Below are positions 11,937 through 35,557 of a stretch of 39,956 nt of DNA, piece after piece (position 1 is the first letter of the stretch; the number at the start of each line of letters is the position of its first letter). The stretch is from contig CAWBMV010000023.1 in the NCBI GenBank assembly GCA_963789955.1, positions 1 to 39,956 on the forward strand. The letters run 5' to 3'. Made by a program: the position numbers and the translations under genes. The notes under the pieces were generated by a model, which was not told the DNA's origin, did not search any database, and saw only the letters and a list, made by a program, of their open reading frames with translations. The DNA is from an uncultured Candidatus Rokubacteria bacterium (lineage in GTDB: Bacteria > Methylomirabilota > Methylomirabilia > Rokubacteriales > CSP1-6).

Positions 11937-12112
11937 GCGCCGGGGCCGAGGGCGGGTCGGGGGACGGTGAGGGGTGCGGCGACCACGCGGCACGCGCGCG
12001 CCGGACCCGGCGCGGCTGGGCTCCATCCCGGCGCGGCTCTTCCGACGTTCGCAAGGAGGGAACGGGTCGGCGCACCCCTCACCGTCCCCCGACCCGCCCT
12101 CGGCCCCGACGC
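11937..12112 (+). repeat. Long-stem/80-nt-core intergenic element, copy A
   Basis: 48-bp arms 11937-11984 and 12065-12112 (2 mismatches) enclosing an 80-nt core ACGCGGCACGCG...CGGCTGGGCTCCATCCCGGCGC...GGAGGGAACG. Confidence 0.9.
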
Positions 12113-12120
12113 CGTCATGC

Positions 12121-12183
12121 GTAGGACGACGGCGAATCTGCCGCAAGGGATATTCGGGCGGGTCGGAGCCACGCCGCGCCTAC
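12121..12183. repeat. Degenerate GTAG...CTAC REP-like inverted pair
   Basis: GTAGGACGACGGCG at 12121 versus CGCCGCGCCTAC ending at 12183; imperfect pairing. Confidence 0.35.
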
Positions 12184-12207
12184 AGCACGCCACCCTCGGT
12201 ATGAGCC

Positions 12208-12247
12208 GGTCGCTCGCTCCAATACAGTGGTCGCTCGCTCCAATACA
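12208..12247 (+). repeat. Direct tandem repeat GGTCGCTCGCTCCAATACA x2 (21-bp period)
   Basis: Identical 19-mers at 12208-12226 and 12229-12247, ending 3 nt before ATG 12251. Confidence 0.9.
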
Positions 12248-12250
12248 ACA

Positions 12251-13121
12251 ATGACGCAGGCGCTGTTCGGGCAGCTCCTGATCGGGCTGATCAACGGCGC
12301 GTTCTACGCTCTGTTGAGCCTGGGGCTCTCGGTCATCTTCGGATTGCTGAACATCATCAACTTCGCGCACGGCGCCCAGTACATGATGGGCGCGTTCGTC
12401 GCGTACTTCCTGCTTCAGTGGGTCGGGCTCGGCTACTGGTGGGCGCTGCTCATCGCGCCCATCGTCGTGGGCATCGTCGGCATCGTGCTCGAGCGCACGA
12501 TGCTCAAGCGCCTCTATCAGCCTCGACCACCTGTACGGGCTCTTGCTGACGTTCGGCTTCGCGCTGATCATCCAGGGCCTGTTCCGGAACCAGTACGGCT
12601 CGTCCGGGCTGCCCTACGCGATGCCCGCCGCAGCTCGCGGGCGGCCAGAACCTCGGCTTCATGTTCCTGCCCAACTATCGGGCGTGGGTCATCGTGTTCT
12701 CGCTCGCGGTCTGCCTCGCGACCTGGTACGTGATCGAGCGGACGCGGCTCGGCTCCTACCTGCGCGCGGCGACCGAGAACCCGGCGCTCGTGCAGGCGTT
12801 CGGGATCAACGTGCCGCGGATGATCACGCTGACCTACGGCTTCGGCGTGGGCCTGGCCGCGCTCGCCGGCGTGCTCGCGGCGCCGATCTACCAGGTGAAC
12901 CCGCTGATGGGCGCCGATCTCATCATCGTGGTCTTCGCGGTGGTCGTGATCGGCGGCCTCGGCTCGATCATGGGCTCGATCGTCACCGGCTTCGGCCTCG
13001 GCGTCGTCGAGGGCTTCACGAAGGTCTTCTACCCCGAGGCGTCCAACACCGTGATCTTCGTGATCATGGCTGTCGTGCTGCTCGTGCGGCCCGCCGGGCT
13101 CTTCGGTCGAGCGCGTCGTGA
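12251..13121 (+). CDS. livH: Liv-type ABC permease LivH family (frameshifted in this sequence)
   Basis: QLLIGLINGAFYALLSLGLSVIFGLLNIINFAHG; later frames give TRLGSYLRAATEN, VIGGLGS, VRPAGLFG. Confidence 0.85.
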
Positions 13122-14111
13122 CTCGCGCACGAGCGAGTCAGTACGCCGGCGCGATCGTACCGCGACGGTCCCCGGCGATGCTCGACGGCGTCACGTCGTC
13201 GCCTTCGTGGTCATGGCGACGGTCCTCGTGGTCGGCGCCGTTCTTCGTCTACCCGGTGTTCCTCATGAAGGCGCTCTGCTTCGCGCTCTTCGCCTGCGCC
13301 TTCAACCTGCTCATCGGCTACGTCGGGCTCCTGTCGTTCGGCCACGCGGCCTTCCTCGGCTCGGCCGGCTACGCGACCGCGCACGCCGCGAAGGTGTGGG
13401 GCTGTCCGCCGGAGCTGGCGATCCTCTTCGGGACCGCGGTGGCGGCCGGCGCTCGGCGTCGTCATCGGCGCGCTCGCGATCCGGAGCCAGGGCATCTACT
13501 TCGCGAACATCACGCTGGCGTTCGCGCAGATGGTCTTCTTCTTCTGCGCTGCAGGCGACGTTCACCGGCGGCGAGGACGGCATCCAGGCGGTCCCGCGCG
13601 GGACGCTCCTCGGCGTGCTCGATCTCCGGCAGACGCTGACGCATGTACTTCGTCGTGCTCGCGATCTTCCTGCTCGGCTTCCTCTCGATCTACCGCGCGA
13701 TCCACTCGCCGTTCGGCCAGGTCCTGAAGGCCATCCGCGAGAACGAGCCGCGCGCGATCTCGCTCGGCTACCGCGCCGAGCAGTACAAGCTGCTCGCGTT
13801 CGTGCTCTCGGCGACGCTCTGCCGGGCCTCGCCGGCGGCGACCAAGGCCATCGTCTTCCAGCTCGCGTCGCTCACCGACGTGCACTGGACGATGTCGGGC
13901 GAGGTCGTGCTCATGACGCTGCTCGGCGGCCTCGGCACGGTCTTCGGCCCGGTGGTCGGGCGCCTTCATCATGATCACGCTCGAGAACTACCTGGCGCAG
14001 CTCGGCGCGTGGGTCACCGTCGTCCAGGGCGTGATCTTCGTCGTCTGCGTGCTGACCTTCCGCCGCGGCGTGGTCGGCGAGCTCGGCCGCATTCTGCGGA
14101 AGCCGCTCTGA
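13118..14111 (+). CDS. livM: Liv-type ABC permease LivM family (several frameshifts)
   Basis: FNLLIGYVGLLSFGHAAF, FTGGEDG, SPFGQVLKAIRENEPRA, LLGGLGTVFGP spread over three frames; stop TGA 14109-14111. Confidence 0.83.
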
Positions 14112-14131
14112 GCACGTGAGCGGGAGGCCCC

Positions 14132-14934
14132 ATGACGTACACGCGACGTCCTCTACGAGAAGAAGGACGGCGTCGCCTGGATCACCATCAACCGTCCCGA
14201 GGTCCGCAACGCGTTCCGCACGACGCACCGTCGCACGAGCTGACCGACGCGTTCCTGGACGCGCGCTGGGACCCGCGCGATCGGCGTCGTCGTGCTCACC
14301 GGCGCCGGCGACAAGGCCTTCTGCTCCGGCGGCGACCAGAAGGAGCGCGGGCAGGGCGGCTACTCGGGCGCGGCGGCGCAGCGAGCAGGCCCGATGGACG
14401 TCGAAGCGCTGCACAGCGCGATCCGCCACATCCCGAAGCCGGTGATCGCGATGGTGAACGGCTTCGCGATCGGCGGCGGCCACGTGCTGCACGTGCTCTG
14501 CGATCTCTCGATCGCCGCCGAGACACGCGATCTTCGGCCAGACCGGGCCCGCGCGTCGGCAGCGTCGACGCCGGCCACGGCACCGGCTATCTCGCGCGCG
14601 TGGTCGGCGAGAAGAAGGCGCGCGAGATCTGGTACCTGTGCCGCCAGTACTCGCGCGCAGGACGCGCTCGCGATGGGCCTCGTCAACAAGGTGGTCCCGC
14701 TGAAGGAGCTGCGCGCCGAGGTCGAGCAGTGGTGCGCGCGAGCTGCTCGAGAAGAGCCCGACGGCGCTCGCGCTCGCCAAGCAGTCGTTCAACATCGACT
14801 CCGAGCCGCGCGCTGGCGTGGCGCAGTTCGCGAGCACCGCGCTCGACCTCTACTACCAGACCGACGAGGCGATGGAAGGACGCAACGCGTTCGTCGAGAA
14901 GCGGCCGGTCGATTTCAAGAAGTTCCGAAAATGA
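14132..14934 (+). CDS. MenB/BadI-type crotonase (2-ketocyclohexanecarboxyl-CoA hydrolase / naphthoate synthase-like), frameshifted
   Basis: Reassembled: [98 protein letters not shown]. Confidence 0.85.
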
Positions 14935-15072
14935 CAAAACTGGTAGGACGGGGCGGTCCGGTGTCGTCAGGCTGACACCCCGTCCGGCGCGGTCGAGTCG
15001 CGATAGACCGAGCTTTTTCAATGATCTAAGCGGCCTCCGCCACCTGGCAGGGGGATTGCCCCATCGAGGGAC

Positions 15073-15327
15073 ATGACGTGGCGAGAGATCATGTCCTTCG
15101 TGGTGATGCCGGCCGCGCTCGCGCTGGCCGCGGCTCTGGCGCTCGGCGCGGTCGTTGTGAGCGGCGAGGATTCCAAGGTGCGTCCGGCGGTTCTGGTCGG
15201 CGACGATCTGCTTCGCATCTTCCAGGAAGGCAAGGACGCCGCCGAGCAGGCGGACCCGCCCGAGATCAGTCTCGGCACCGCGTTCGACCCGCAGCAGCCG
15301 CAGCCGACTTCGACGGACTACCGATAG
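15073..15327 (+). CDS. Small hypothetical protein with N-terminal hydrophobic segment
   Basis: GAGGG RBS, ATG start, one TM/signal segment, GC3-rich codons; fills the intergenic gap. Confidence 0.55.
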
Positions 15328-15359
15328 CGTCCCGCTCGATGTAGACTGCCGCCCGGCAC

Positions 15360-16767
15360 ATGGCCGGGCTCCTCTCCCGCTACTTCGGCTTCAGAGAGCG
15401 ATCGACCGATCTCGCGACCGAGGTTCGCGCGGGCGTCACGACGTTCATGGTGATGGCCTACATCATCTTCGTGAACCCGATCATTCTCGGCTTCACCGGC
15501 GTCCCGGGCCTCGAGGGCAAGGGACTTCCGTTCGCGGCGACGCTGACCGTGACGTGTCTCACGGCGGGCTTGCTCTCGATCGCGATGGGGCTGTCGAGCA
15601 ACTATCCGTTCGCGCTCGCCGCCGGGATGGGGCTCAACGCGGTCGTCGCGTTCGAGCTGGTCGCCGGCCGCGGGCTCACGTGGCCGCAGGCGATGACGGT
15701 GGTCTTCCTCGAGGGCCTCGTCATCACGGTGCTCGTGCTGACGCGCTTCCGCGAGGCGCTGATGGACGCCGTGCCGATCGCGCTCAAGCGCGCGATCAGC
15801 GTCGGCATCGGCCTCTTCATCGCCTTCATCGGCTTCTTCACCTCGGGCTTCGTGGTGAAGCCCGCGGCGGGGCCGCTGCCCGTCGGGCTCGGGACGTTGC
15901 GGGGGCTGCCGATCGCGGTCTTCCTCATCGGCTTCGTGCTGACGGCGTGGCTGATGGCGCGCCGGCGCGTGGGGCGCTGCTCCTCGGCATCCTGCGCGAC
16001 GACGATCATCGCGATCGTGCTCAACGGGCTCTTCGCCGGCTGGCAAGGGCTTCGCGACGCCGGGCGCGGCGCAGATCCCGTCGGCGCATCGTCCAGGCGC
16101 CGGACTTCTCGACGTTCGGCCGTCTCGACTTCGGGCTCTTCGCGAAGCTCGGGGTCGCTCGGCGGCGATCCTCGCGATCTTCTCGATCATGCTGAGCGAC
16201 TTCTTCGACACCATGGGCACGATCATCGGCGTGGGCGGAAGCGGCGGCTTCCTCGACCACCGCGGTCAGCTGCCGCGCGTCGAATCGCGTGCTGCTCGTC
16301 GATTCGATCGGCGCGATGTTCGGCGGCCTCGCGAACGCCAGCAGCAACACGACCTACATCGAGAGCGCGGCCGGCGTGGCCGAGGGCGGGCGCCGGACCG
16401 GCCTCGCGTCCGTCGTGACCGGACGTGCTGTTCCTCGCTCGCGATGTTCTTCGCGCCGCTGGCCGGCGTCATCCCCGCCCAGGCGACCGCGCCGGCGCTG
16501 ATCATCGTCGGCTTCTACATGATGGCGATCGCGCGGGACATCGCGTGGGACGACGTACGAGGAGGCCATTCCCGCGTTCGTGACGATGCTGGTGATGCCG
16601 TTCACCTGGTCGATCACCAACGGCATCGGCGCGGGATTCGTCACGTACACCGCGATCAAGCTGCTTCGCGGGCGCGGCCACCAGTTGAGCTGGATGCTCT
16701 ACCTCGCGTGCGCGGCGTTCATCGTCTACTTCTGCCTGCCGCTGATCGAGGAGCGCGCGCCAAGTAG
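15360..16767 (+). CDS. NCS2/AzgA-family nucleobase permease (frameshifted)
   Basis: TEVRAGVTTFMVMAYIIFVNP, AAGMGLNA, DFFDTMGT, TTYIESAAGVAEGGRTG, MPFTWSITNGI. Confidence 0.9.
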
Positions 16768-16840
16768 GGGGAGCCGGCACGCGCGCGGCGTTCCACCAGG
16801 GGACACGCGTCGCGTAAGTGCTCGTTATCCCGGCAATTTC

Positions 16841-16869
16841 TTGACACAGCCGCCGCGCTTGGCTAGACT
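16841..16869 (+). promoter_or_regulatory. Sigma70-type promoter for the acyl-CoA synthetase/ABC operon
   Basis: TTGACA (16841-16846), 17-nt spacer, TAGACT (16864-16869), about 100 nt upstream of the GGAGG/TTG start. Confidence 0.7.
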
Positions 16870-16972
16870 CGCGCCACCAGGAGCGGGTCCGCGCGCCGGG
16901 CTCGAGCCGGCATCGGCCCGCTCGGATCTGCCCTCCCTCGAGGCAGTAACCTTGACTGATCGCGGAGGCGAC

Positions 16973-18926
16973 TTGAAGGCAGTCTCGCGACGCACGACAC
17001 GTTTCCCGAAGCTCGTGCGCGAGAACGCGCGAGCGCCTCCCCGACAAGGTCGCGATCCGCGAGAAGGATCTCGGCATCTGGCAGTCGTACACGTGGTCGC
17101 GAGTATTTCGAGCAGGCGCGCCTCATCGCGCTCGGCCTCGCGTCGCTCGGCTTCGCGCGCGGCGACCGCGTGGCGATCGTCGGCGACAACCGCCCGCAGC
17201 TCTACTGGGCGGTGATGGCGGCGCAGGCGCTCGGCGGCGTGCCCGTACCGATCTATCAGGACTCCATCGAGCGCGAGATGGAGTACATCGTCGAGCACGC
17301 CGAGGCGCGGTTCGCGATCGTCGAGGATCAGGAGCAGGTCGACAAGCTCCTGGACGTCCGGGCCCGCTGCCCGCCACCTCGCAGCACGTCGTCTACGACG
17401 ATCCGCGCGGCATGCGCGCCTACAGCGAGCCCGGGCCTCATGAGCCTGGCCGAGCTCGCCGAGCAGGGCCGGAAGTTCGAGGTGAGCCATCCCGGGCACT
17501 TCGACGCCGAGCTCGCCAAGGGCGCCGCCGACGACACCGCGATCATCTGCTACACCTCCGGGACCACCGGCGCGCCGAAGGGCGCGATGCTCTCGCATCG
17601 GAACCTGATCGTCACCGCGCGCAACGCGGCGACCTTCGAGGGGCTCGGCGAGGACGAAGAGAGTGCTCTCGTACCTGCCGATGGCGTGGGTGGGCGACCA
17701 CGTCTTCTCCTACGCGCAGTCGATCGTCACCGGGTTCACGATCAACTGTCCGGAGAGCGCGGCCACGGTGCTTCGCCGATCTGAAGGAGATCGGCCCGAC
17801 CTACTTCTTCGGGCCGCCGCGCATCTGGGAGAGCATCCTCACCAGCGTCATGGTCCGGGTCGAGGACTGCCGCCGGCCCAAGCGCACGCTGGTCCACTTC
17901 TTCCTGCGCCTGGCCCAGGACATCGAGCGCAAGCGCCTCGGCCGGCCAGCCGATCCCGCTCTGGCAGCGCCTCCTGTACCCGCTCGGCAGCCTGCTCGTC
18001 TACGGGCCGCTCAAGGACAATCTCGGCATGCTCGCGCGTGCGTCGCGCCTACACCGCGGGCGAGGCGATCGGCCCGGAGATCTTCCTGTTCTTCCGCGCG
18101 CTCGGCGATCAACGTCAAGCAGCTCTACGGGATGACCGAGGCCAGCGTGTTCGTGACGATCCAGCGGGACGGCGACGTGCGGCTCGATACGGTGGGCACG
18201 CCGATCACCGACGTCGAGATCCGGATCTCCGACACGGGCGAGGTGCTGTTCCGCAGCCCCGGCGTGTTCCAGGGCTACGCGAAGAACCCGGAGGCCACCC
18301 GGCAGACGCTCGAGGACGGCTGGATCCACTCGGGCGACGCCGGATTCCTCGACCGCGACGGCCATCTCGTGATCATCGATCGGGCCAAGGACGTGAGCCG
18401 GCTCGCGGACGGCACGATGTTCGCGCCCAAGTTCATCGAGAACAAGCTCAAGTTCTCGCCCTACGTTCGCGAGGCGGTGTGCATCGGCCAGGCCCGGCCG
18501 TGCGTGACCGCGTTCATCAACATCGATCTGGCGGCCGTCGGCAGCTGGGCGGAGCGGCGGAACATCGCGTACACGAGCTACGGCGATCTCGCGCAGAAGC
18601 CGGAGGTCTACGAGCTGATCCGCGGAGAAGTCGAGCGCGTGAACGCGAGCCTGGCCGAGGACGACGTCTTGCGCGGGGCACAGGTCAGGCGGTTCCTGAT
18701 CCTCCACAAGGAGCTCGACCCGGACGACGAGGAGATCACGCGCACCCGCAAGGTGCGGCGCGGGTACATCGCGCAGAAGTACGCGGCGCTCATCGACGCG
18801 CTCTACTCGGGACAGGATCGTGTGCAGGTCGAGGCGAAGGTGACCTACGAGGACGGCCGCACCGGCACCATGCGGGCGGACGTGGTGATCCGCGACGTCG
18901 GGGCGCCGGTTCCGGTGGCGCGGTGA
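16973..18926 (+). CDS. Long-chain acyl-CoA synthetase (AMP-binding), copy 1, several frameshifts
   Basis: AIREKDLGIWQ, YTSGTTGAPKG, YLPMAWVGD, KQLYGMTE, SGDAG, IIDRAKD, EITRTRKVRR; TTG start after GGAGG is tentative. Confidence 0.87.
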
Positions 18927-19709
18927 ACGAAGCCGGAGGGCCGCTGCTCGAGGTGGACGGCGTGAGCGTGCGGTTCGGCGCGCTGCTCGCGGTCCACCAG
19001 GTCAGCCTGAGCGTCCCGCAGCGGGAGATCGTGGCGATCATCGGACCCAACGGCGCCGGCAAGACCACCTTGCTCAACGCCGTGAGCGGGTTCTATCAGC
19101 CGTACGAGGGGCGGATCGCGTTCGAGGGACGCGATCGCACGCGCCTGTCACCGCCGGACGTGGCCGCGCTCGGCATCGCGCGCACGTTCCAGAACGTCGC
19201 CCTGTTCAAGGGCATGAGCGTGCTCGACAACATCATGACGGGCCGGCTCCTGAAGATGCGCGGAAGCTTCCTGACGCGAGGCGCTCTACTGGGGCCCGGC
19301 CAAGCGCCAGGAGCTCGAGCACCGGGCCGTCGTCGAGCGGATCATCGACTTCCTGGAGATCCAGGCGATTCGCAAGACGCCGGCGGGCCGCCTGCCGTAT
19401 GGCCTGCAGAAGCGGGTCGAGCTCGCCCGAGCGCTGGCCGCCGAGCCCAAGCTCCTGCTGCTCGACGAGCCGATGGCCGGGATGAACGTCGAGGAGAAGG
19501 AAGACATGTGCCGCTTCATCCTCGACGTCAATCAGGAGTTCGGCACGACGATCGTCCTCATCGAGCACGACATGGGCGTGGTCATGGACATCTCCGATCG
19601 CGTGGTGGTGCTCGACTACGGCCGCAAGATCGCCGACGGCCCGCCGGCTCGGGTGCGGAGCGACCAGGCGGTGCTCGACGCGTACCTGGGTGTCGCGCAT
19701 GAGTCTTGA
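18923..19709 (+). CDS. LivG-family ABC ATPase, module 1 (frameshift about 19275)
   Basis: GPNGAGKT, ARTFQN, LPYGLQKRVE, LLDEPMAGMN, IEHDM; GTGA overlap with the upstream gene. Confidence 0.88.
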
Positions 19710-19782
19710 TCGAAGGGGGCCTCGACGGCCCCCTCCGAGCCTCCCCCAGATCCGGATTGCGCCGGCAAAGCCGGCGCTCGAA
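19710..19782. repeat. Double-hairpin REP-like intergenic element (second family, single copy here)
   Basis: AGGGGGCC-TCGAC-GGCCCCCT hairpin, C-rich linker, then GCGCCGGC-AAA-GCCGGCGC (19759-19777). Confidence 0.55.
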
Positions 19783-19796
19783 CGCGGACAACACCG

Positions 19797-20735
19797 ATGG
19801 TAGAGCTCCTGTACGCGGTGGCGGTCGCGCCGTTCAAGGACATGGCGGGTGCGCCGGCGTTCCTCGTCGAGGTGCTGATCGGCGGGATCTTCGCCGGTCT
19901 CATGTACTCGCTGGTGGCGCTCGGTTTCGTGCTGATCTTCAAGGCGTCGGGAGTCTTCAACTTCGCGCAGGGTGTGATGGTGCTGTTCGCCGCGCTCACC
20001 CTGGTGGGCCTGCTGGAGCGCGGCGCGCCCGTCATCGTCGCGCTCGTGTTGACGACCGGCGTCATGGTGGCGCTGGCGTTCGCGATCGAGCGGCTCGTGC
20101 TGCGTCCGCTCGTCAACCAGGCGTACATCATCCTGTTCATGGCGACGATCGGCCTCAACTTCTTCCTCGAGGGCTTCGGCGAGATGTTGTGGGGCGCCAA
20201 CGTCAAGAAGCTCGACATCGGGATCCCGGATCGCTCGTTCATCGTCCGCGGCGTGCAGATCAACCAGCTCGAGCTGACGGCGGCGATCACCGCCGCCGTG
20301 CTGGTCACCGTGCTCGCCGTGTTCTTCCAGCGGACCCGCATCGGCCGCGCGCTCCGCGCTGTCGCCGACGACCACGAGGCGGCGCTCTCGATCGGTATCC
20401 CGCTCAAGACGATCTGGATCGTGGTGTGGTCGGTGGCGGGTGTCGTGGCGATGGTCGCCGGGCTGATGTGGGGCGCCAAGAGCGGCGTGCAGTTCAGCCT
20501 CTCGCTCATCGCGCTCAAGGCGCTGCCCGTGCTCATCCTGGGCGGCTTCGAGTCCGTGCCGGGTGCGATCGTCGGCGGGCTCATCATCGGCGTCGGCGAG
20601 AAGCTCGGCGAAGTCTACTGGGGCCCGCTGGTCGGCGGCGCCATCGAGAACTGGTTCGCCTACGTGCTCGCTTTGGGCTTTTTGCTGGCGCGGCCGCAGG
20701 GATTGTTCGGCGAAAAGATCATCGAGCGCGTATGA
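19797..20735 (+). CDS. LivH-family ABC permease, module 1
   Basis: YSLVALGFVLIFKASGVFNFAQG, TRIGRALRAVADD, ILGGFES, RPQGLFGEKIIERV. Confidence 0.92.
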   Translation: MVELLYAVAVAPFKDMAGAPAFLVEVLIGGIFAGLMYSLVALGFVLIFKASGVFNFAQGVMVLFAALTLVGLLERGAPVIVALVLTTGVMVALAFAIERLVLRPLVNQAYIILFMATIGLNFFLEGFGEMLWGANVKKLDIGIPDRSFIVRGVQINQLELTAAITAAVLVTVLAVFFQRTRIGRALRAVADDHEAALSIGIPLKTIWIVVWSVAGVVAMVAGLMWGAKSGVQFSLSLIALKALPVLILGGFESVPGAIVGGLIIGVGEKLGEVYWGPLVGGAIENWFAYVLALGFLLARPQGLFGEKIIERV

Positions 20736-20772
20736 CGTCCCTGAACGCTCTCACTCTCCGCTCGAGCCGGAA

Positions 20773-20919
20773 CGCCCCGCGGGGCCGGCCGGGCGGGGAT
20801 CTCCCCGGCGACCACGCTAACGAACACCCGTGGCGGCGACAGCTCCAGCGGTACGGTCCGGACATCCCTGACAACACGGGTCGCCGGGGAGATCCCCGCC
20901 CGGCCGACCCCGCGGGGCG
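20773..20919 (+). repeat. Long-stem intergenic element, copy B (divergent 65-nt core)
   Basis: 41-bp arms 20773-20813 and 20879-20919 (1 mismatch); same junctions GACC|ACGC...ACG|GGTC and an internal GCTCCA as in the 80-nt copies. Confidence 0.8.
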
Positions 20920-23372: not shown

Positions 23373-23380
23373 GCACGGCG

Positions 23381-26904: not shown

Positions 26905-27794
26905 CGACCTCGGATTCTTCTTCCTGCTGATCTCGAATGGGCTCCTGACCGGCCTGATGTACTCGCTGATCGCGCTCGGTTTCGTGCTGGTCTACAAGGC
27001 CACCGACGCGATCAACTTCGCGCAGGGCGAGTTCGTCATGATCGCCGGCTTCGTCGCGGCCGGCGCCCTCATGGTCTGGGGCGCGCCGCTGTGGCTCGCG
27101 GTCCTGCTGGCGATCGCCAGCCTGGTCCTGTTCGGCTTCGTGCTCGAGCGGGTCATGCTGCGCAAGCTCATCGGACGGCCGGTGATCGCCGTCGTCATGG
27201 CCACGATCGGGCTCGCGTCGATCTTGCGCGGCGTCGGGCCGTTCACGATCTTCTCCGGGACCAAGCCGCTGCCGCTGCCGATCCGCGACGAGCCGTTCAT
27301 GCTGGGCCCGCTATTCATTCCGCCGATCCAGCTGCTGGGCGCCGGCGGTGAGCCTGGCGTTCCTGGCCGGCTTCGGCTGGTTCTTCTTGAAGTCGCGCAA
27401 GGGCATCGCGATGCGGGCGGTCGCCGACAACCAGCAGGTCGCGATGGCCATGGGCATCGACGTCGAGCGCTACTTCGGCGTGGCGTGGGCGATGACCGGC
27501 ATCGTGTCGGCCCTGGGCGGGATCCTCTGGGGCAACCTGCTCGGCGTCGACATCAACCTCGCGCTGGTCGGCTTCAAGGTGTTTCCGGTGGTGATCCTCG
27601 GCGGGCTCGACTCGATTCCCGGCGCGATCCTCGGCGGCCTGATCGTCGGCGTCGTCGAGAACATCGCCGCGGGCTACGTCGATCCCGTCGTCGGCGGCGG
27701 CACCAAGGATTTCGCGCCGTACGTGCTCATGATCGTCGCGCTCATGGTTCGCCCGTACGGCATGTTCGGCAAACGCATCATCGAGCGAGTCTGA
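26897..27794 (+). CDS. LivH-family ABC permease, module 2 (frameshift about 27345)
   Basis: YSLIALGFVLVYKATDAINFAQG; GIAMRAVADN, ILGGLDS, RPYGMFGKRIIERV. Confidence 0.9.
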
Positions 27795-27806
27795 GCGTGT
27801 ACATCT

Positions 27807-27974
27807 GGCTTACGGCGGCGGGGTGGGGTGGGGGGAGGGGTGCTGGGACCACGCGGCACGCGTTCGCGCTGCCCGGGGCGGCTGGGCTCCATCCCGGCGC
27901 GCCTCGTCCGCATTCGACTTGGAGGGAACGGGTCCCAGCACCCCTCCCCCCACCCCACCCCGCCGCCGCAAGCC
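27807..27974 (+). repeat. Long-stem/80-nt-core element, copy C
   Basis: 44-bp arms 27807-27850 and 27931-27974 (1 mismatch); 80-nt core 27851-27930 aligns without gaps to copy A. Confidence 0.92.
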
Positions 27975-28098
27975 CTCGGACGACTCGCTCAGAGCCGTTC
28001 GACGCGTTTGCCTCGCTCCCGTTCTATGAGCCTAGCCACATTCCGCGCATAAAACTGCCTTCGCGATCCGTCTCATGTTGCACATCCCGGTGGCACGA

Positions 28099-28264
28099 GT
28101 GGAGGCGTCGGAGGTGGGATGGTGCGGGGGGTGTCGGGACCCGTTCCCTCCAGGCGAGCGGCGGACCAAGTGCGCCCGGATGGAGCCCAGCCGATATGGG
28201 AAGTGCGAACGCGTGCCGCGTGGTCCCGATACCCCCCGCACCGTCCCGCCTCCGACGGCTCGAC
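28099..28264 (-). repeat. Long-stem/80-nt-core element, copy D (inverted relative to C)
   Basis: Arms about 28099-28141 and 28222-28264; the reverse complement of 28142-28221 is an 80-nt core with the same three conserved blocks. Confidence 0.92.
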
Positions 28265-28278
28265 GCGTGGAGACGAGG

Positions 28279-29347
28279 ATGATCCAACGCGAGTGTGGAG
28301 TGCTGAAGACGAGCTATGAAGCGGATATGGGGCTCTATCCGCTGCCAATCGCGAAGTGGACCGTTGCGGCGGTGGCGGTGGTGTTCTTTCTCGTCATCCC
28401 GCTTACCTTGCACGAGTATTTCCTGTCGGTGGCCAACCTCGTGTGGGTCGCCGTCATCGGCGCGCTCGGTCTCAACATCCTGGTCGGCTACACGGGGCAG
28501 GTGTCGATCGGCCACGGGGCGTTCATGTCGGTCGGCGCGTACACGGCCGCCAACCTCGCCAATCGCCTGGGCTCGCCGTGGCCCGTGAATCTGCTGGCCG
28601 GCGGGTTGATGGCGGCGGTGATCGGCGGCATCGTCGGGATCCCGTCCTTGCGCATCAAAGGGCTCTACCTGGCCATCGCCACCCTGGCCGGTCAGCTGAT
28701 CATCGAGTGGACGATCAATCACGTGACCTTCATCAGCGGCGGGGTGCAGGCGTCGATCGAGGTGGCGCGGCCGCGGCTGGGCCCGATGGTGCTGAGCAGC
28801 CAACGCGACATGTACTACTTCCTGCTCGTGTTCGTCGTCCTGGCCATCATCGGGCACGATGAATCTCATGCGAAGTCGAGTCGGGCGCGCGTTCATCGCG
28901 ATTCGCGACCACGACATCGCCGCCGAGATCATCGGCATCAACATCTTCCGCTACAAGCTGCTCGCCTTCGCGATCTCGTCCTTCTACGCCGGGGTGACCG
29001 GGGTGCTGTACACGTACTTCCTCGGCATCGCCAACTACGAGCAGTTCCAGATCGGCGTCTCGATCGACTATCTGGCGATGATCATCATCGGCGGGCTCGG
29101 GTCCGTCCTGGGCTCGATCTTCGGCGCGATCTTCGTGACCCTGCTGCCGATCGTCATCCGCTACGCCATGGAAGCCTTCGGCGGGGTCTTCTTCGACCAG
29201 TCAACCGTGCTCAATCTCATTCCCAACCTCCGCCTCATGATGTTCGGCGCCCTCATCATCTTCTTCCTGATCGTGGAGCCCGAGGGACTGAACCGTCTGT
29301 GGCGGAACATCCGAAGCTACTTCAGGGTCTGGCCGTTCGCGTACTGA
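28279..29347 (+). CDS. LivM-family ABC permease, module 2 (frameshift about 28855)
   Basis: MIQRECGVLKTSY, GLNILVGYTGQVSIGHG, LRIKGLYLAIATLA; AIRDHDIAAE, FRVWPFAY. Confidence 0.9.
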
Positions 29348-29370
29348 GTACGCGAGCAAGGAGAACGCAC

Positions 29371-30625
29371 ATGAGACAGTTCCTGGCCATCGCGACGGCG
29401 TTGATTCGTGGCGGCGGGCAGCCTGCTGACGGCCGATCCGTCCTACGCCCAGTCGAAGGGCGAGATCGTGATCGGCGTGCAGTGCGACCGCACCGGACCG
29501 ACCCAGATCGTCGGCACGGTCCTGTGCCCGGGCTTTCACGACTACATCGCCCTGGTGAACTCCAAGGGCGGCGTCGAGGGCTACAAGATCAAGGCCCTCG
29601 AGATCGACCACGAGTACAAGGTGCCGCCGGCCGTCGAGTCCTACGAGCGCTACAAGAAGGAGGGCGCCGTGACGATGGCGATCTACGGCACGCCGCAGAT
29701 CTACGCGCTGGCGGCGAAGCTCACGGAGGATCGCATCCCCGGCACCTCGCCGGGCTTCGGCAGCGCCGCGGCCGCCGACGGCGTCCGCTATCCGTACATC
29801 TTCCCGATCGCCGCGACCTACTGGTCGCAGGGCGCGGCCGCGGTCGACTTCGTGAAGAAGCAGCTGGGCGGCAGTCTCAAGGGCAAGAAGATCGCCTACA
29901 TCTTCTACGACAACCCGGCCGGCCGCGAGCCGATCGAGGTCATCGAGGACCTCGCGGCGAAGGAAGGCTTCCAGCTCAAGACCTTCGCGGTGCCGCCGCC
30001 CGGCGTCGAGATGGGCGCCCAGGTGCTCGACATCGCGCAGCGCTACCGCGCCGACTTCGTGATCGCGCACCTCTTCGGCGGCGCGCCGTCGGTGTCGATC
30101 AAGGAGTTCAAGCGGGTCGGCTATCCGCTCCGCAAGGTCGTGTCGTTCGTGTGGGGCTCGGCCGAGGCCAACATCGACGGTGCCGGCGGCTTCGCGGTCG
30201 CCGAGGGCTACCACGTGATGCAGTTCGCCGGCGTGGGCACCGACTATCCGGTGCTGAACGAGATCCGCGAGATGTACAAGAAGCAGGGGAAGGAAGCGCC
30301 GAAGGAGATGGCGTCGACGGTGTTCTACAACCGGGGCGTGCTGGTGGCGGCACTCCACGTCGAGGCCATTCGCAACGCGTTGAAGGCCAAGCCGAACGGC
30401 AAGATCACCGGCGTCGACACCAAGAACGGCTTCGAGAAGATCTCGAACTTCACCCTGGGCGGGCTGGTGCCGCCGCTCAAGATCACCAACACGGACCACG
30501 AGGGCGGCGGGCTCGTGCAGATCTGGCAGGTCAAGGACGGCAAGTTCGTGAAGGAGACCGACTGGTTCGCCGCGTATCAGGATGTGGTGGCCAAGCACAT
30601 CAAGGAGAGCGGGGCGAAGAAGTAA
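29371..30625 (+). CDS. Liv-type ABC substrate-binding protein, module 2 (frameshift in the signal peptide about 29405)
   Basis: AAGGAG then ATG 29371; DRTGPT, GGVEG, YERYK, DNPAGRE, TDHEGG; distant paralogue of 22059..23372. Confidence 0.9.
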
Positions 30626-30635
30626 GAGCCCGGTG

Positions 30636-31430
30636 ATGCTGAGCCTCAACAACATCGAGGTCATCTACGACGGCGTGATCCTCGTCCTCAAGGGCGTGTC
30701 GCTCAACGTCCGCGAGGGCGGGATCACGACGTTGCTCGGCGCCAACGGCGCCGGCAAGACCACGACGCTCAAGGCGATCTCGGGTCTCTTGCGGTCCGAG
30801 CGCGGCGACGTCACGAAGGGCTCGATCGAGTTCAAGAACGAGCGGATCGACCGGCTGCCGCCGCACGCGGTGGTCCGGCGCGGCATCGTGCAGGTGTTCG
30901 AGGGCCGCCGGGTCTTCGAGCACCTGACGACCGAAGAAAACCTGATCGCCGGCGCGCACATTCAGAAGGACCGGCACAAGGTCACCGCCGGGATCGAGCG
31001 CGTCTACGGCTACTTTCCGCGTCTCAAGGAACGGCGCGCTGTCCAGGCCGGGTACCTGTCCGGGGGCGAGCAGCAGATGCTGGTCATCGGCCGCGCGCTG
31101 ATGGCCGATCCCCACGTGATACTCCTCGACGAGCCGTCGCTCGGTCTGGCGCCGATGCTGGTCGAGGAGATCTTCGGCATCGTGCAGCAGCTCAATCGGC
31201 AAGAGAAGCTCACCGTGCTGCTGGTCGAGCAGAACGCGTCGCTCGCGCTGACCATCGCCGAGCACGGCTACGTGATGGAAAACGGGCGGATCGTGCTCGA
31301 CGGCACCGCGGCGATGCTCACCCAGAACGCCGACATCAAAGAGTTCTATCTCGGCCTCACCGAGGTCGGCGGTCGCAAGTCGTATCGGGATGTCAAACAC
31401 TACAAGCGCCGGAAACGTTGGCTCTCCTGA
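30636..31430 (+). CDS. LivF-family ABC ATPase, module 2
   Basis: NNIEVIYDGVILVLKGVSL, GANGAGKT, LSGGEQQM, KHYKRRKRWLS. Confidence 0.93.
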   Translation: MLSLNNIEVIYDGVILVLKGVSLNVREGGITTLLGANGAGKTTTLKAISGLLRSERGDVTKGSIEFKNERIDRLPPHAVVRRGIVQVFEGRRVFEHLTTEENLIAGAHIQKDRHKVTAGIERVYGYFPRLKERRAVQAGYLSGGEQQMLVIGRALMADPHVILLDEPSLGLAPMLVEEIFGIVQQLNRQEKLTVLLVEQNASLALTIAEHGYVMENGRIVLDGTAAMLTQNADIKEFYLGLTEVGGRKSYRDVKHYKRRKRWLS

Positions 31431-31444
31431 GAGGAGCGGACTCG

Positions 31445-31897
31445 ATGCGTCTGAGGCGAGGGATTGGACTGTGGATGGTGGTGGTCGTCGCGACGCTGAA
31501 CCTCGCGGCGTGCGCGACGATGGGCGATCCGCCGCCGACACTCTACAAGCGGCTGGGCGGACGCGAAGGCATCGCGATCGTGGTCGGCGACTTCGTCACC
31601 AACATGACCGGTGACAGCCGAGTCAACGCGCGGTTCAAGGACATGAAAGGCCCCGACGTCGAGAAGCTGAAGTCGAACCTCGCCGACCAGATCTGCGACG
31701 CGACCGGCGGGCCCTGCTCTTACCTCGGGCGCGACATGAAGGCGGCGCACAAGGGCATGAACATCACCGACGCCGAGTGGAACGCGACCGTCGAGAACCT
31801 CACCAAAGCGCTCGACAAGAACAACGTCGCGCCCAAGGACAAGAGCGAGCTGCTCGGCCTGCTCGGACCGATGAAGGCGGACATCGTCGGCCAGTAA
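31445..31897 (+). CDS. Group 1 truncated haemoglobin (2/2 globin) with lipoprotein signal
   Basis: GAGGAG RBS; lipobox LAA-C; LYKRLGG, TGGPCSYLGRDMKAAH (proximal His), ITDAEWNA. Confidence 0.9.
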   Translation: MRLRRGIGLWMVVVVATLNLAACATMGDPPPTLYKRLGGREGIAIVVGDFVTNMTGDSRVNARFKDMKGPDVEKLKSNLADQICDATGGPCSYLGRDMKAAHKGMNITDAEWNATVENLTKALDKNNVAPKDKSELLGLLGPMKADIVGQ

Positions 31898-31915
31898 ATC
31901 GGTAGGTATGGGTAG

Positions 31916-33439
31916 ATGAGCGCCCAGGCGTTCACGGTCTACGACCTGCTCGTGCGGGGCGCGTCGCTCCATGGCGACGCGCCCGCGCTGATCCAATCCA
32001 CGCGGCAGTGGACCTTCCGTCAGCTCCTCGAGCGCACCGACCGCCTGGCGGCCGGGCTGGCGGGCCTCGGGCTGTCCAAGGGCGATCGGATCTGCATCCT
32101 CGCCCAGAACGACGTGGGCTACGTCGATCTGTACGGCGCCTGCGCCCGCCAGGGCATCATCGCGTACCCGATCAACTGGCGCCTGACGGCGCCGGAGGTC
32201 GAGCGCGTCCTGGAGCGCGCGTCGCCGGTGATGATGGTGGCGGACGCGTCCACCCTGCCGGTCGTCGGCGAGTGGCCGCGGACCAAGCGCGGCATCGCGC
32301 ACTGGTACCAGCTCGGCGAGGCACCGCCGGCGCCAGGTTTCACGGCGCTGGCGAGCCTCTACCACGACGGCGAGGCGCCGCCGGTCGCCGACGTGGCCGG
32401 CGACGACCCCTTCGCGGTGATCTCCACGGCGGCGGTGGACGTGATCCCGCGCGGCGCCGTGCTCACGCACGCGAACATGATCACGGCGTCGCTCGTGGTC
32501 GTGCAGAGTCTCGGGTTCACGGCCGTCGATCGCTACCTGCTCGCGCTGCCGCTGTTTCACATCACGGCGCTCGGCAACTTCGTGGCGCACCTGCACGCGG
32601 GCGGCGCCTGCGTGCTGGTCCCGCGCTATGACGCCGAGGAGGCGGTGCGCCTGATCGACGCGCATCGCATCACCCACCTTTCAGACTTTCCGCCGGTGCT
32701 CGTCAACCTGCTGGACGCGGCGAAGAAGCTCGGGAGCAAGCTGCCGAGCTTGAAGCACGTGTCGGGGCTCGACGCGCCGCCCACCATCCAGCGACTGCAC
32801 GACGAGACCCACGCGCAGTTCTGGACGGGCTTCGGGCAGTCCGAGACCACCGGGTTTGTCAGCATCCAGCGCGTCCGCGACAAGCCCGGCGCCGCCGGTC
32901 GCCCGATCCCCGTGTGCCGGGTGCGGCTCGTCGACGACTACGATCGCGAGGTGGCGACCGGCACGCCCGGCGAGATCGTGGTGCGCGGGCCGGTCGTGTT
33001 CCAGGGCTACTTCGGCCAGCCCGACGTGACCGCGTACACCCTGCGCAACGGCTGGCACCACACCGGCGACGTGGGCCGCTTCGACGACGAGGGCTGGCTC
33101 TACTACGTCAGGCGCAAGCCGGAAAAGGAGCTGATCAAGCCCGGCGGCGAAAACGTCTACCCGGCCGAGGTCGAGTCGGTGATCGTGCAGATGGACGGTA
33201 TCGGCGCGGCGTGCGTCTACGGCGTCCCCGACGTCAAGTGGGGCGAGTCGATCAAGGCGGTCGTCGAAGTGCGGCCGGCCGACCACTATACGGCTCAGCA
33301 GGTGATCGACTTCGTGGGCTCGAAGATCGCCCGGTTCAAGCGCCCACACGCGGTGGTGTTCACCGATGCGCTGCCCCGGACCGCCGACGGCGCCGTGGAC
33401 CGCGAAGCCGTGAAGGCCAGGTGGGGCACCGGAGCGTGA
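31916..33439 (+). CDS. AMP-binding (ANL superfamily) protein with degenerate catalytic motifs
   Basis: LPLFHI, GFGQSE, GEIVVRGP, GWHHTGDVG, GGENVYPAEVE present; P-loop reads STAAVDVIPRG and the C-terminal Lys motif reads PRTADGAVDR. Confidence 0.88.
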   Translation: MSAQAFTVYDLLVRGASLHGDAPALIQSTRQWTFRQLLERTDRLAAGLAGLGLSKGDRICILAQNDVGYVDLYGACARQGIIAYPINWRLTAPEVERVLERASPVMMVADASTLPVVGEWPRTKRGIAHWYQLGEAPPAPGFTALASLYHDGEAPPVADVAGDDPFAVISTAAVDVIPRGAVLTHANMITASLVVVQSLGFTAVDRYLLALPLFHITALGNFVAHLHAGGACVLVPRYDAEEAVRLIDAHRITHLSDFPPVLVNLLDAAKKLGSKLPSLKHVSGLDAPPTIQRLHDETHAQFWTGFGQSETTGFVSIQRVRDKPGAAGRPIPVCRVRLVDDYDREVATGTPGEIVVRGPVVFQGYFGQPDVTAYTLRNGWHHTGDVGRFDDEGWLYYVRRKPEKELIKPGGENVYPAEVESVIVQMDGIGAACVYGVPDVKWGESIKAVVEVRPADHYTAQQVIDFVGSKIARFKRPHAVVFTDALPRTADGAVDREAVKARWGTGA

Positions 33440-34584
33440 AGGTCTTCGCCGAGCATCACGAGATGTTCCGCGCGAGCGTGCGCGCCTTCGTCGAGCGCGA
33501 GGTGGCGCCGCACGTCGAAGCGTGGGAGGCCGCGGGTCGGATCCCGAAGACGATCTGGCCCCGCATGGGCGAGCTCGGCCTGCTCGGCGTCGAGTACGAC
33601 GAGAAGTACGGCGGCGCGGGCGCCGATCTCTTCACGACCGCCGTCCTGCACGAGGAGTGCGCGCGGTCGCGGTCGGGCTCGTTCGCAATGGCCGTCGGCG
33701 TCCACACCGATATGGCGTCGCCCCACCTCTACTGGACGGGCAGCGAGGCGTTGAAGGAGAGGTACCTGCCCGGGATCTGCCGCGGCGAGAAGCTCTGCGC
33801 GCTCGCCGTGACCGAGCCGGGCGGCGGCAGCGACGTCGCCGCGATCCGTACGCGCGCCACCCGCGACGGCGATCACTACGTCCTGAACGGCTCGAAGATG
33901 TTCATCACCAACGGCGCCCTGGCCGATCTCTACTTCGTCGCGGCCCGCGTCGAGGCCGGCGACATCGGCCGCCGTCATCGCGGCATCTCGGTGTTCCTGG
34001 TCGAGCGCGAGACGCCGGGCTTCGCCGTGAGCCGCACCCTGGCCAAGACGGGAATGCTCGCCTCGGACACCGCCGAGCTCTCGTTCCAGGACGCGCGGGT
34101 TCCCGCCGAGAATCTGCTCGGCCGCGAGGGCGTCGGCTTCTACGAGGTCATGCGCGTCTTCCAGCGCGAGCGGCTCGTGGCCGGACTGCACGCGGTCGCG
34201 ATGTCCCAGCGCGCGCTCGAGGACACCATCGCCTACGTGCGCGAGCGCCAGGCGTTCGGCGGGCCGCTGTCGGACAAGCAGGTCGTGCGACACAAGCTCG
34301 CCGACCTGGCGACCCTGATCGAGGCCGGCCGCCAGCTCACCTACGCCGCGTGCCGGCACTACGCGGACGGCGAGGAGGCGGTGCTCGAGGTCTCGATGGC
34401 CAAGCTCTTCACCGCCGAGCTGGCCAACCGCGTCGCCTACGATTGCGTGCAGCTCCACGGCGGCTACGGGTACATGCGCGAGTACGCGATCGAGCGCTTC
34501 GCGCGCGACGCCCGGCTCTTCACGATCGGCGGCGGCACCAGCGAGATCATGAAGGAGATCATCGCCAAGGAGCTCAAGCTCTAG
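33436..34584 (+). CDS. Acyl-CoA dehydrogenase (LCAD-like)
   Basis: GTG start overlapping the upstream stop; AVTEPGGGSD, NGSKMFITNG, ERL, RQAFG, QLHGGYGYMRE, IGGGTSEIMK. Confidence 0.93.
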   Translation: MKVFAEHHEMFRASVRAFVEREVAPHVEAWEAAGRIPKTIWPRMGELGLLGVEYDEKYGGAGADLFTTAVLHEECARSRSGSFAMAVGVHTDMASPHLYWTGSEALKERYLPGICRGEKLCALAVTEPGGGSDVAAIRTRATRDGDHYVLNGSKMFITNGALADLYFVAARVEAGDIGRRHRGISVFLVERETPGFAVSRTLAKTGMLASDTAELSFQDARVPAENLLGREGVGFYEVMRVFQRERLVAGLHAVAMSQRALEDTIAYVRERQAFGGPLSDKQVVRHKLADLATLIEAGRQLTYAACRHYADGEEAVLEVSMAKLFTAELANRVAYDCVQLHGGYGYMREYAIERFARDARLFTIGGGTSEIMKEIIAKELKL

Positions 34585-34591
34585 TCCCGGT

Positions 34592-35434
34592 GTGAGCGCG
34601 CCTGACTTCGTCGCCATCGGGCACGTCACGCTCGACCGCTTCGGCGAAAGCACGCGCCCGGGCGGCTCCGCGCTCTACGCCGCCGTCACGGCCCATCGCC
34701 TGGGCCTCTCCGTCGGCCTCCTCACCAGTCACGGCGACGACTTTCCCCTGGACGTGATTCCGTCGAAGATCGAGGTCGTCAGCTTGCCGGCCGACGAGAC
34801 GACCGTGTTCGAGCACCGGCACGAGCCGAGCGGCCGCGTCTCGCACGTCCGCGGCGTGGCCAGCCCGCTGACGGCGGCCGACGTGCCCGAAGACTGGCGC
34901 GAGGCCGCGTTGACCCTGCTGGCGCCCGTGGTCGACGAGGTCGATCCGATGATCGCGACGCTCTTCACCGACGGCGCCGTGGGCGCCGCCGCGCAGGGCT
35001 GGGTGCGGCAGGTGAAGCCGGACGGGCTCGTCATCCCGCGCCCCTGGCAGTCGCCCGAGCGCCTGCTGCAGTCGGTCCAGGCGCTGTTCCTGAGCCGCGA
35101 GGACATCATCGGCCAGGAGGCCCAGGTGATCGAGTGGTTCCAGCGCATACCCGTCGGCGTCCTCACGGCCGACCGCGCCGGCGCCTTGCTGTTCGTGAAC
35201 GGCGAGCGGTACGAGGTTCAGCCGCGGGCGGCGCGCGAGGTCGAGCCGACCGGCGCCGGCGACGTGTTCGCCGCGACCTTTCTCATCCAGTACCAGCGCG
35301 ACGGTGACCCGTGGGAGGCGGCGGCCGCCGCGGCCTGCGCCGGCTCGCTCGCGGTGGAGGGCGAGGGGTGGTCGTCGGTCGCCGACCGCGCCGCGCTCGA
35401 CGCGGCGCTCGCGGAGTACCAGCGCAACGCTTGA
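34592..35434 (+). CDS. PfkB/ribokinase-family carbohydrate kinase
   Basis: N-terminal IGHVTLD and PGGSALY; C-terminal EPTGAGDVFAA. Confidence 0.9.
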   Translation: MSAPDFVAIGHVTLDRFGESTRPGGSALYAAVTAHRLGLSVGLLTSHGDDFPLDVIPSKIEVVSLPADETTVFEHRHEPSGRVSHVRGVASPLTAADVPEDWREAALTLLAPVVDEVDPMIATLFTDGAVGAAAQGWVRQVKPDGLVIPRPWQSPERLLQSVQALFLSREDIIGQEAQVIEWFQRIPVGVLTADRAGALLFVNGERYEVQPRAAREVEPTGAGDVFAATFLIQYQRDGDPWEAAAAAACAGSLAVEGEGWSSVADRAALDAALAEYQRNA

Positions 35435-35435
35435 G

Positions 35436-35557
35436 GCTCTCGGTCCGGTCGCGGGTGAGGCTGGGGGCCGGTGCTGCGACCACGCGGCACGCGTTCGCTG
35501 CTCCTCCGCGGCTGGGCTCCATCCCGGCGCCTGTGCGCCCGTTGATGCTTGGAGGGA
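35436..35557 (+). repeat. Long-stem/80-nt-core element, copy E (right arm missing)
   Basis: G-rich left arm ending GACC (35478-35481), then ACGCGGCACGCGTTCGC...GCGGCTGGGCTCCATCCCGGCGC...GGAGGGA; similarity stops 6 nt before the IS target duplication. Confidence 0.85.

What the first reader, a model, noticed from the sequence alone, without database searches (positions are those of the whole stretch)
11937..35557. Intergenic element family: copy-specific long stems around a fixed-length 80-nt core
Seen in sequence: copies at 11937-12112 (A), 27807-27974 (C), 28099-28264 (D, inverted) and 35436-35557 (E, truncated), plus a divergent relative at 20773-20919 (B). In A, C and D the core between GACC and GGTC is exactly 80 nt and aligns without gaps. 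Its conserved blocks are ACGCGGCACGCG (core 1-12), CGGCTGGGCTCCATCC(C/G)GGCGC (29-50) and GGAGGGAACG (71-80), separated by two variable windows. The 41-48 bp arms differ strongly between copies (all G-rich then C-rich), yet each pairs almost perfectly with its own partner. MITEs and REPs usually show the opposite, with conserved ends and a variable interior. Inference: structure is maintained in the arms while sequence and spacing are maintained in the core. That fits a structured ncRNA or ssDNA mobile unit or a recombinase substrate that I cannot assign to a named family. All copies are intergenic, four of them inside ABC operons, and no cognate enzyme gene is in the window.
Basis: partly seen in the sequence, partly recalled or inferred. 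Interest (0 to 1): 0.85.

Follow-up and report, generated by a model that had tools for sequence, protein, structure and literature searches.

The report
Eroded mini-transposon with conserved, swappable core
These hairpin repeats in a soil bacterium match the inner part of a small transposon whose intact copies in related genomes carry the ends of a known jumping-gene family; the copies here lack those ends and are likely immobile, yet their centre has stayed nearly unchanged for a reason that is still only inferred.

Summary
The repeats are real: 36 copies in this genome and copies in 16 of 16 congeners; the host is inferred to be a Rokubacterium. The core is 77-82 nt (mode 78), not fixed at 80. 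B is a sister core family. In relatives the best-preserved copies are 243-263-bp elements flanked by CTAG on both sides, with ends matching complete IS630 insertion sequences (best 31 of 32 nt): they are MITEs. The window copies are the inner ~170 bp and lack those ends. Three things are unusual. The same core also sits between IS1380-type ends. Both MITE ends resemble the IS630 right end. At 19 orthologous end-less sites the core blocks are 96-99% identical against 72% at four-fold degenerate sites, while arms drift yet stay paired; cores are occasionally inverted or replaced by a sister core. No Y1/RAYT gene was found in 17 genus genomes; Rfam has no match. The scan met this family before on other DNA (four notes, one more with IS1380 ends); I found no note of the IS630 link. 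Verdict: new MITE variant, core function unresolved.

The parts
11937..12112 (+). Copy A, core family F1; 48-bp arms, core 11985-12064; no transposon ends; follows the stop of a branched-chain ABC binding-protein gene
   Evidence: same orientation in all 15 relative copies mapped to this site
27807..27974 (+). Copy C, F1; 44-bp arms; first of two copies between two ABC permease genes
   Evidence: the spacer is empty in L022, has one copy in L001, three in L017 and an unrelated 169-bp insert in L023
28094..28269 (-). Copy D, F1; 48-bp arms; opposite orientation; ends 9 bp before the ATG at 28279
   Evidence: best window match to the full-length MITE profile (E 1.4e-20)
28066..28093 (+). Possible eroded remnant of an IS630-type end outside copy D (resemblance by eye to L145; below the 8-bit threshold of the end profile)
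   Evidence: not established
35436..35557 (+). Copy E, F1; 5' arm plus most of the core, 3' arm deleted; starts 2 bp after a pfkB-family stop codon; the nearest congener has the same arm with the core inverted
   Evidence: L147
20773..20919 (+). Copy B, sister core family F2 (tag GTGT(A/T)G(G/T)CA on the minus strand, otherwise variable 57-67-nt loop), 41-bp arms
   Evidence: a relative has a truncated F1 copy in this spacer (L105)
35580..37171 (-). ISNCY-family insertion sequence (frameshifted transposase, NF033594) with a 16-bp target duplication; a neighbour, not the cognate element
   Evidence: two more copies in the genome at 94-96% identity

Best explanation
The window copies match the inner ~170 bp of a 243-263-bp miniature inverted-repeat transposable element (MITE) whose intact copies carry IS630 ends flanked by CTAG; they lack those ends, so they are likely immobile relics of insertions that an IS630 transposase likely made in trans. 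Shown: intact copies with CTAG on both sides and ends matching complete IS630 elements; four near-identical intact copies at different loci of one genome; partly eroded ends in the same genus; no recognisable ends in this genome. Inferred mechanism: (1) the MITE probably arose by fold-back duplication of one IS end, since both of its ends resemble the IS right end and the core has no match in the IS body; (2) it inserts by cut-and-paste at TA within CTAG; (3) after insertion the outer ends decay, while the two arms keep correcting each other (template switching or arm-to-arm conversion), which makes them copy-specific yet paired and now and then flips the core; (4) the three core blocks are held by selection, most likely as a recognition site for a DNA-binding factor acting on the hairpin or cruciform, because orientation relative to transcription is unbiased; (5) inner cassettes (core plus 10-35 bp of arm) are sometimes overwritten by another copy or a sister core.
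For: Ends: 12 distinct full-length F1 elements, best end match 31 of 32 nt to the IS in L443, which encodes an IS630 transposase (NF033545, 259 bits, cut-off 100). A complete IS630 with an 81% identical transposase and matching ends lies in congener G007. G089 holds four intact copies of 257-258 bp, 89-95% identical, at different loci. CTAG on both sides in 36 of 350 elements against 9 of 1030 control spacers. One site shows a single CTAG in G000 and two around an element in L102, whose left end is deleted. Erosion in the genus: intact in G003 (L450, L420), decayed in L128 and L049. In 11 of 12 elements both ends match the IS right end better than the left over 18 subterminal bases; cores have no match in six IS bodies (best E 0.04). 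Constraint: blocks 96%, 97%, 99%; windows 78% and 64%; arms 68%; four-fold sites 1824 of 2538 = 72% (19 site pairs). Arms change in step at orthologous sites. Inversions at 3 of 28 mapped sites (4 against 107 same-orientation calls) plus L048/L288. IS630-family elements insert at and duplicate TA (passages of PMC2170065; the CTAG preference from a title in its reference list).
Against: Only 25 of 277 F1 copies with flanks carry ends (21 IS630-type, 4 IS1380-type), and none of 126 element flanks in this genome does (one weak unrelated hit genome-wide), so descent of the window copies from an IS630 insertion is inferred, not seen. Stops next to elements in G000 are not enriched for CTAG (5 of 27 against 562 of 4433, p 0.38). 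No IS630 match to the L443 protein in G000 at E 1e-10 (87% complete). L157, L048 and L095 share core and inner arms at 82-93% at unrelated loci yet have no ends, which transposase action alone does not explain. The same core in two unrelated end types fits capture of a pre-existing cassette equally well. No clean filled/empty pair for a complete MITE was found. Block identities are biased upwards by motif-based parsing. Step 4 has no direct evidence; a core hairpin with G-T wobbles only on the plus strand points towards RNA instead.
Confidence: 0.6

Rival explanations
1. The end-less hairpin cassette is the primary element. It spreads by overwriting resident hairpins through an unknown, strand-specific route and has secondarily been captured by, or has invaded, MITE shells of IS630 and IS1380, which then move it as cargo.
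For: F1 cores lie in both end types, F3 cores in IS1380-type ends, and one F2 copy beside an IS1380-type remnant; the same IS630 ends occur with other interiors or none (L447, L451, L455, L456). Eight G000 sites with an F2 or F3 core hold F1 in a relative (six, one, one), two with similar outer arms between two few-contig assemblies (L260, L245). End-less subfamily at unrelated loci. Arm mismatches are strand-biased: A-C 123 against G-T 44 on the F1 plus strand in 153 copies, 25 against 9 in G000 alone (p 0.009), 25 against 7 in F2 loci.
Against: No candidate enzyme: Y1 0 of 17 genus genomes, no reverse transcriptase in G000 and 2 of 5 congeners, no HUH-motif protein among 690 neighbouring ORFs, no gene-flanking long version. 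Re-use of rare CTAG sites (0.31 per kb) could put different families in one spacer without exchange. The strand bias could come from mutation or repair and does not name the active strand.
Confidence: 0.25
2. The cassette is kept mainly as a structured RNA element in the mRNA (a long stem for RNase III or 3' protection, with a conserved multibranch core), as proposed for Correia/NEMIS and ERIC elements.
For: Core helix 31-39/45-53 tolerates G-U only on the plus strand, and positions 29-56 and 30-55 covary (113 and 103 Watson-Crick pairs of 188, 55 and 67 expected). Many copies start within about 15 bp of a stop codon. RNase III processing of MITE transcripts is described (passages of PMC2229807, PMC10969869).
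Against: In co-directional gene pairs 12 copies are sense and 10 antisense. Arms are depleted of G-T on the plus strand. No Rfam match. The helix was chosen with G-U allowed, 22 copies have T-T at 29-56, and relatedness was not controlled.
Confidence: 0.1
3. A REPIN/REP family mobilised by a RAYT (Y1 HUH) enzyme.
For: Vertical persistence at fixed spacers, mixed families at one site as reported for REPINs (passages of 10.1101/2024.10.14.618302), GTAG/GTGG-like tags in F2-F4.
Against: No Y1 domain in 17 of 17 genus genomes; the 19 Y1 loci from other genera carry none of the four cores; REPINs have conserved arms and a less conserved spacer (passages of PMC3116915).
Confidence: 0.03
4. A programmed invertible switch (inverton) flipped by a site-specific recombinase.
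For: Inverted cores in the same arms at E and other sites.
Against: 18 of 18 shared sites have the same orientation in the two few-contig assemblies; inversions were seen only in fragmented assemblies, one contig of which is chimeric through the core, so some may be artefacts; arms have no conserved crossover sequence; no recombinase next to a copy.
Confidence: 0.02

Closest known systems
IS630-mobilised bacterial MITEs (RUP of Streptococcus pneumoniae; also Correia/NEMIS and ERIC, TA-flanked) (PMC2229807, passages read)
   Same: Under 300 bp, non-coding, intergenic, long stem-loop, ends matching an IS630 element, TA target within CTAG.
   Different: Most copies (252 of 277) lack ends yet keep a strongly conserved interior; arms are 40-85 bp and copy-specific; both ends resemble the IS right end; the same core also occurs in IS1380-type ends; cores are inverted or exchanged.
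IS1380-end MITEs of Rokubacteria (this work; earlier scan note e1-1489088)
   Same: CTAG-flanked, 210-245 bp, long hairpin with conserved core; four F1 copies and three F3 copies have such ends.
   Different: Most end-bearing F1 copies (21 of 25) have IS630 ends; the IS1380 assignment rests on one partial transposase (125 bits, cut-off 180 for the full length).
REPIN-RAYT systems (PMC3116915; 10.1101/2024.10.14.618302; passages read)
   Same: Hairpin repeats persisting in the same spacers across a lineage, several families per genome, mixed occupancy of one site.
   Different: No RAYT/Y1 gene in the genus; conserved loop rather than conserved arms; DDE-type ends in intact copies.
Quasi-palindrome template-switch mutation and hairpin loop inversion (recalled; also named in earlier scan notes)
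   Same: Arms perfected against each other, loop occasionally inverted.
   Different: A mutational process, not a family; it does not explain the conserved core blocks.

Membership tests
IS630-type MITE (intact copies in relatives) | Short, non-coding, terminal inverted repeats | tested here: met
   12 elements of 243-263 bp closed by inverted ends
IS630-type MITE (intact copies in relatives) | Ends match an autonomous IS of the family | tested here: met
   25-31 of 32 nt to the L443 end; L443 protein is NF033545; L483 in the same genus
IS630-type MITE (intact copies in relatives) | TA target duplication | tested here: inconclusive
   CTAG on both sides of all intact copies; one filled/empty pair agrees but its left end is deleted; no clean pair for a complete copy
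IS630-type MITE (intact copies in relatives) | Several near-identical copies at unrelated loci | tested here: met
   four copies in G089, 89-95% identical over 257-258 bp
IS630-type MITE (intact copies in relatives) | Derived from the IS by internal deletion (left and right ends kept) | tested here: not met
   both ends resemble the right end in 11 of 12; core absent from IS bodies. This is the usual origin (PMC3189936), not a strict criterion
IS630-type MITE (intact copies in relatives) | Moved in trans by the transposase | not testable with these tools
   needs a transposition assay
IS630-type MITE (window copies A, C, D, E) | Terminal inverted repeats and target duplication present | tested here: not met
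   0 of 126 flanks in G000 reach 8 bits; filed as likely relics, not as intact MITEs
REPIN/REP with RAYT | Cognate Y1 transposase in the genome, flanked by the repeat | tested here: not met
REPIN/REP with RAYT | Conserved arms, variable spacer | tested here: not met
   non-orthologous arms 52%, cores 76% identical
Known structured RNA family (Rfam 15) | Match at gathering threshold | tested here: not met
   0 in the window; only sub-threshold hairpin matches at C-D
Inverton | Both orientations within one population, linked recombinase | tested here: inconclusive
   orientation differs between some assemblies; no raw reads were available; no linked recombinase
Retron / RT-dependent repeat | Linked reverse transcriptase | tested here: not met
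   none in G000, 2 of 5 congeners; whether those RT loci lie near a copy was not examined

The most novel reading that the evidence does not exclude
A family of non-coding hairpin cassettes that parasitises MITEs: the core is a separate replicator that rides in the shells of two unrelated transposase families (IS630 and IS1380), flips inside its stem and overwrites resident or sister cores by a strand-specific route with an unidentified enzyme, so that it outlives the transposon ends that first spread it.
Probability: 0.25. Interest if true: 0.8.

Novelty: new variant of a known kind. Interest (0 to 1): 0.5.

Why it matters
It explains an apparently 'inside-out' repeat as a late stage of a bacterial MITE and shows the series in one lineage: autonomous IS630, intact MITE burst, eroded ends, end-less hairpin with a core still under constraint. 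It suggests two little-documented processes: MITE birth by fold-back of a single IS end, and sharing of one interior between IS630 and IS1380 shells. With 20-40 copies per genome across a common soil genus and a cognate transposase in a congener, both mobility and the purpose of the core can be tested. The general kind of element is known, and the core's role is not shown, which caps the score.

Tried and rejected
Rfam at gathering and E-value thresholds: nothing relevant. Enzyme searches in G000: Y1, RT and DUF559 none; IS110 one, tyrosine recombinases ten matches, resolvases two, GIY-YIG one, DDE_Tnp_1 one weak, none beside a copy; the Y2 search is uninformative because its control was silent. 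Neighbour-ORF clustering and genes between element pairs gave metabolic and housekeeping genes by inspection; singleton clusters were not scanned against Pfam. Viral contigs: 0 matches. F2 interiors as captured spacers: no convincing genomic source. RNA: only assembled contigs were available; one 270-nt contig with 6 differences covers copy D in run X15, which cannot show strand, ends or level, and no silent control stretch was laid. Orientation against local GC skew: 26 of 51, no bias. CTAG stop-codon enrichment in G000: not significant. The inversion at E first looked like a switch; the few-contig comparison argued against it. One search had a slicing fault and was redone; one search failed and was redone. 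The mismatch count ran beyond the arms and showed no bias (203 against 219); I rely on the restricted counts. No covariance model, protein-database search or structure prediction was run. Literature searches: Rokubacteria + repeat + palindrom (5 papers, none on this by listing), long inverted repeats/conserved loop (0), IS630 + CTAG + MITE (3), IS1380 + CTAG + miniature inverted (0), for background. ISfinder could not be consulted.
Full report
OBSERVATION. A profile of three cores finds 36 copies in the 6.77-Mb genome at E below 1e-5 and nothing more until E 2.7. An independent scan finds 77 long hairpins, 59 with the G-rich arm first and 2 with the C-rich arm first; 63 fall into four core families, F1 36, F2 17 (B belongs here), F3 6 and F4 4, with a few more F2 and F3 found later. 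The F1 loop is 77-82 nt, mode 78 (148 measurable of 173 distinct copies). A strict F1 pattern is in 16 of 16 congeners, 4 of 20 other genomes of the family and 0 of 24 genomes of other families. Record titles of the collection scan are mostly Rokubacteria/Methylomirabilota (115 loci of an estimated 580 stretches); the host of the window is inferred from that. Four hits in distant taxa did not pass the profile, while copies in records titled Binatia and Myxococcales did. Rfam has no match.

BEHAVIOUR AT FIXED SITES. The C-D spacer is empty in one congener, holds one, two or three copies in others and an unrelated insert in one. Arms at one site change between species on both sides together. Between G000 and the other few-contig assembly G011, 18 sites are shared in the same orientation, 11 lack F1 in G000 and 4 could not be mapped. 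At 19 site pairs the blocks are 96, 97 and 99% identical, the windows 78 and 64%, the arms 68%, and four-fold degenerate sites of flanking genes 72%. Parsing needed parts of the blocks, so these values lean high; the 5' block, which the metagenome pattern did not fix, still matches 95% of positions in 128 copies. The ortholog is the closest core in only 4 of 18 pairs. Over all loci, F1 orientation agreed in 107 calls and was inverted in 4, at 3 of 28 sites; L048 and L288 are a further inverted pair. All inversions involve fragmented assemblies and one contig is chimeric through the core, so part may be artefact. Eight G000 sites with F2 or F3 hold F1 in a relative; in L260 and L245 the outer arms look homologous by eye. 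Re-use of rare CTAG sites is an alternative for the others.

THE INTACT ELEMENT. Comparing copies at unrelated loci showed shared sequence beyond the arms. The best-preserved copies extend to about 125 bp from the centre and end in CTAG on both sides: 36 of 350 elements against 9 of 1030 control spacers. Searching 131 family genomes for this end gave pairs 1145-1197 bp apart that enclose IS630 transposases and pairs 243-263 bp apart that enclose F1. Twelve distinct intact F1 elements match the L443 end at 25-31 of 32 nt; four copies in G089 are 89-95% identical. Congener G007 has a complete IS630 with an 81% identical transposase and matching ends; 7 of 16 congeners have IS630 matches, G000 none with this query. 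G003 has intact copies and other genus loci show decayed ends. IS630-family elements transpose by cut-and-paste and duplicate TA (passages of PMC2170065; the CTAG preference is from a title in its reference list), and RUP was assigned to IS630 on the same kind of evidence (passages of PMC2229807). In 11 of 12 elements both ends resemble the IS right end and the cores have no match in six IS bodies, so fold-back of one end is more likely than internal deletion, the usual origin (passage of PMC3189936); this step is inference.

A SECOND SHELL. A different CTAG-flanked end surrounds four F1 copies and three F3 copies, and a remnant lies beside one F2 copy. The same end precedes a partial IS1380 transposase in L466 (125 bits over 161 residues, full-length cut-off 180) and occurs in 53 of 131 family genomes. 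An earlier scan note reported an IS1380-type, CTAG-inserting MITE in Rokubacteria; I saw it only. Among 277 F1 copies with flanks, 21 have IS630 ends, 4 IS1380-type ends and 252 none; 0 of 27 F2 copies passed either profile.

THE WINDOW COPIES. They align to the inner part of the 258-position profile (positions 41-189 in the reported alignments) and none of 126 element flanks in G000 reaches 8 bits with the end profile, nor do 2237 controls. Stops beside elements are not enriched for CTAG. They are therefore relics by inference. L157, L048 and L095 share core and inner arms at 82-93% at unrelated loci without ends, and the L157 and L048 sites hold other F1 types in other genomes, which suggests overwriting of resident copies.

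WHAT HOLDS THE CORE. A hairpin at positions 31-39/45-53 tolerates G-T only on the plus strand and pairs 29-56 and 30-55 covary, without a phylogenetic control. Arm mismatches lean the other way, A-C over G-T on the plus strand, which shows strand-specific processing but not which strand. Orientation in co-directional gene pairs is 12 to 10. I therefore favour a DNA-level recognition site over an mRNA element, with low confidence. No HUH, RT or recombinase partner was found.

NOVELTY. No paper on this family came up in the searches; of the papers cited I read search passages only, no supplements, and most subscription papers and ISfinder are outside the library. Earlier scan notes describe the family on other DNA as undescribed and REPIN-like and one as an IS1380-type MITE; the three look-ups returned none with the IS630 link or the sharing of a core between shells. 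Quasi-palindrome template switching is recalled knowledge. Verdict: new variant of a known kind, interest 0.5.

Noticed in passing
window 35580-37171; G000 C37:70036-71628 and C16:4879-6382: ISNCY-family IS (NF033594) in three copies at 94-96% identity, with a 16-bp target duplication in the window.
   Followed up: partly
G000 C34 about 1,049,900-1,063,700: A second version of the window's ABC/pfkB region at 87-91% identity, with C and D present, B collapsed and E absent; paralogy or strain mixing (contamination 5.1%).
   Followed up: partly
window 12227-19700 and 27000-29350: Many genes are split by frameshifts, probably assembly indel errors.
   Followed up: no
window 12208-12249: A 19-bp direct repeat in tandem just before the permease start; most relatives have one copy.
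   Followed up: no
L023 (G007:C55), permease spacer; G000 C34:715001-715131: An unrelated 169-bp insert fills the C-D spacer in G007; a separate 29-bp-arm hairpin outside families F1-F4 occurs in G000.
   Followed up: no
L455, L456 (G082:C7); L415, L447, L451, L457: MITEs with the same IS630 ends but a different interior (236-275 bp) or collapsed forms of 43-123 bp.
   Followed up: no
G061, G134, G123, G150, G109: Large bursts of the IS1380-type end, 37-91 matches per genome.
   Followed up: no
L089, about 90-110 bp from the core: A possible third type of outer inverted repeat around an F1 copy.
   Followed up: no
G000 C1:827456-827477 and C37:258389-258410: The interior of an F2 copy matches the arm of an F1 copy at 22 of 22 bases (E 1e-5); may be chance in GC-rich DNA.
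   Followed up: no
G000 C34:6296-7012: A different repeat forms a hairpin and also flanks a 152-aa secreted-type protein gene in inverted orientation.
   Followed up: partly
G000 C6:288636-294953, C17:39571-47214; L150, L151: Another dispersed ~55-bp intergenic repeat that resembles the F1 middle block by eye.
   Followed up: no
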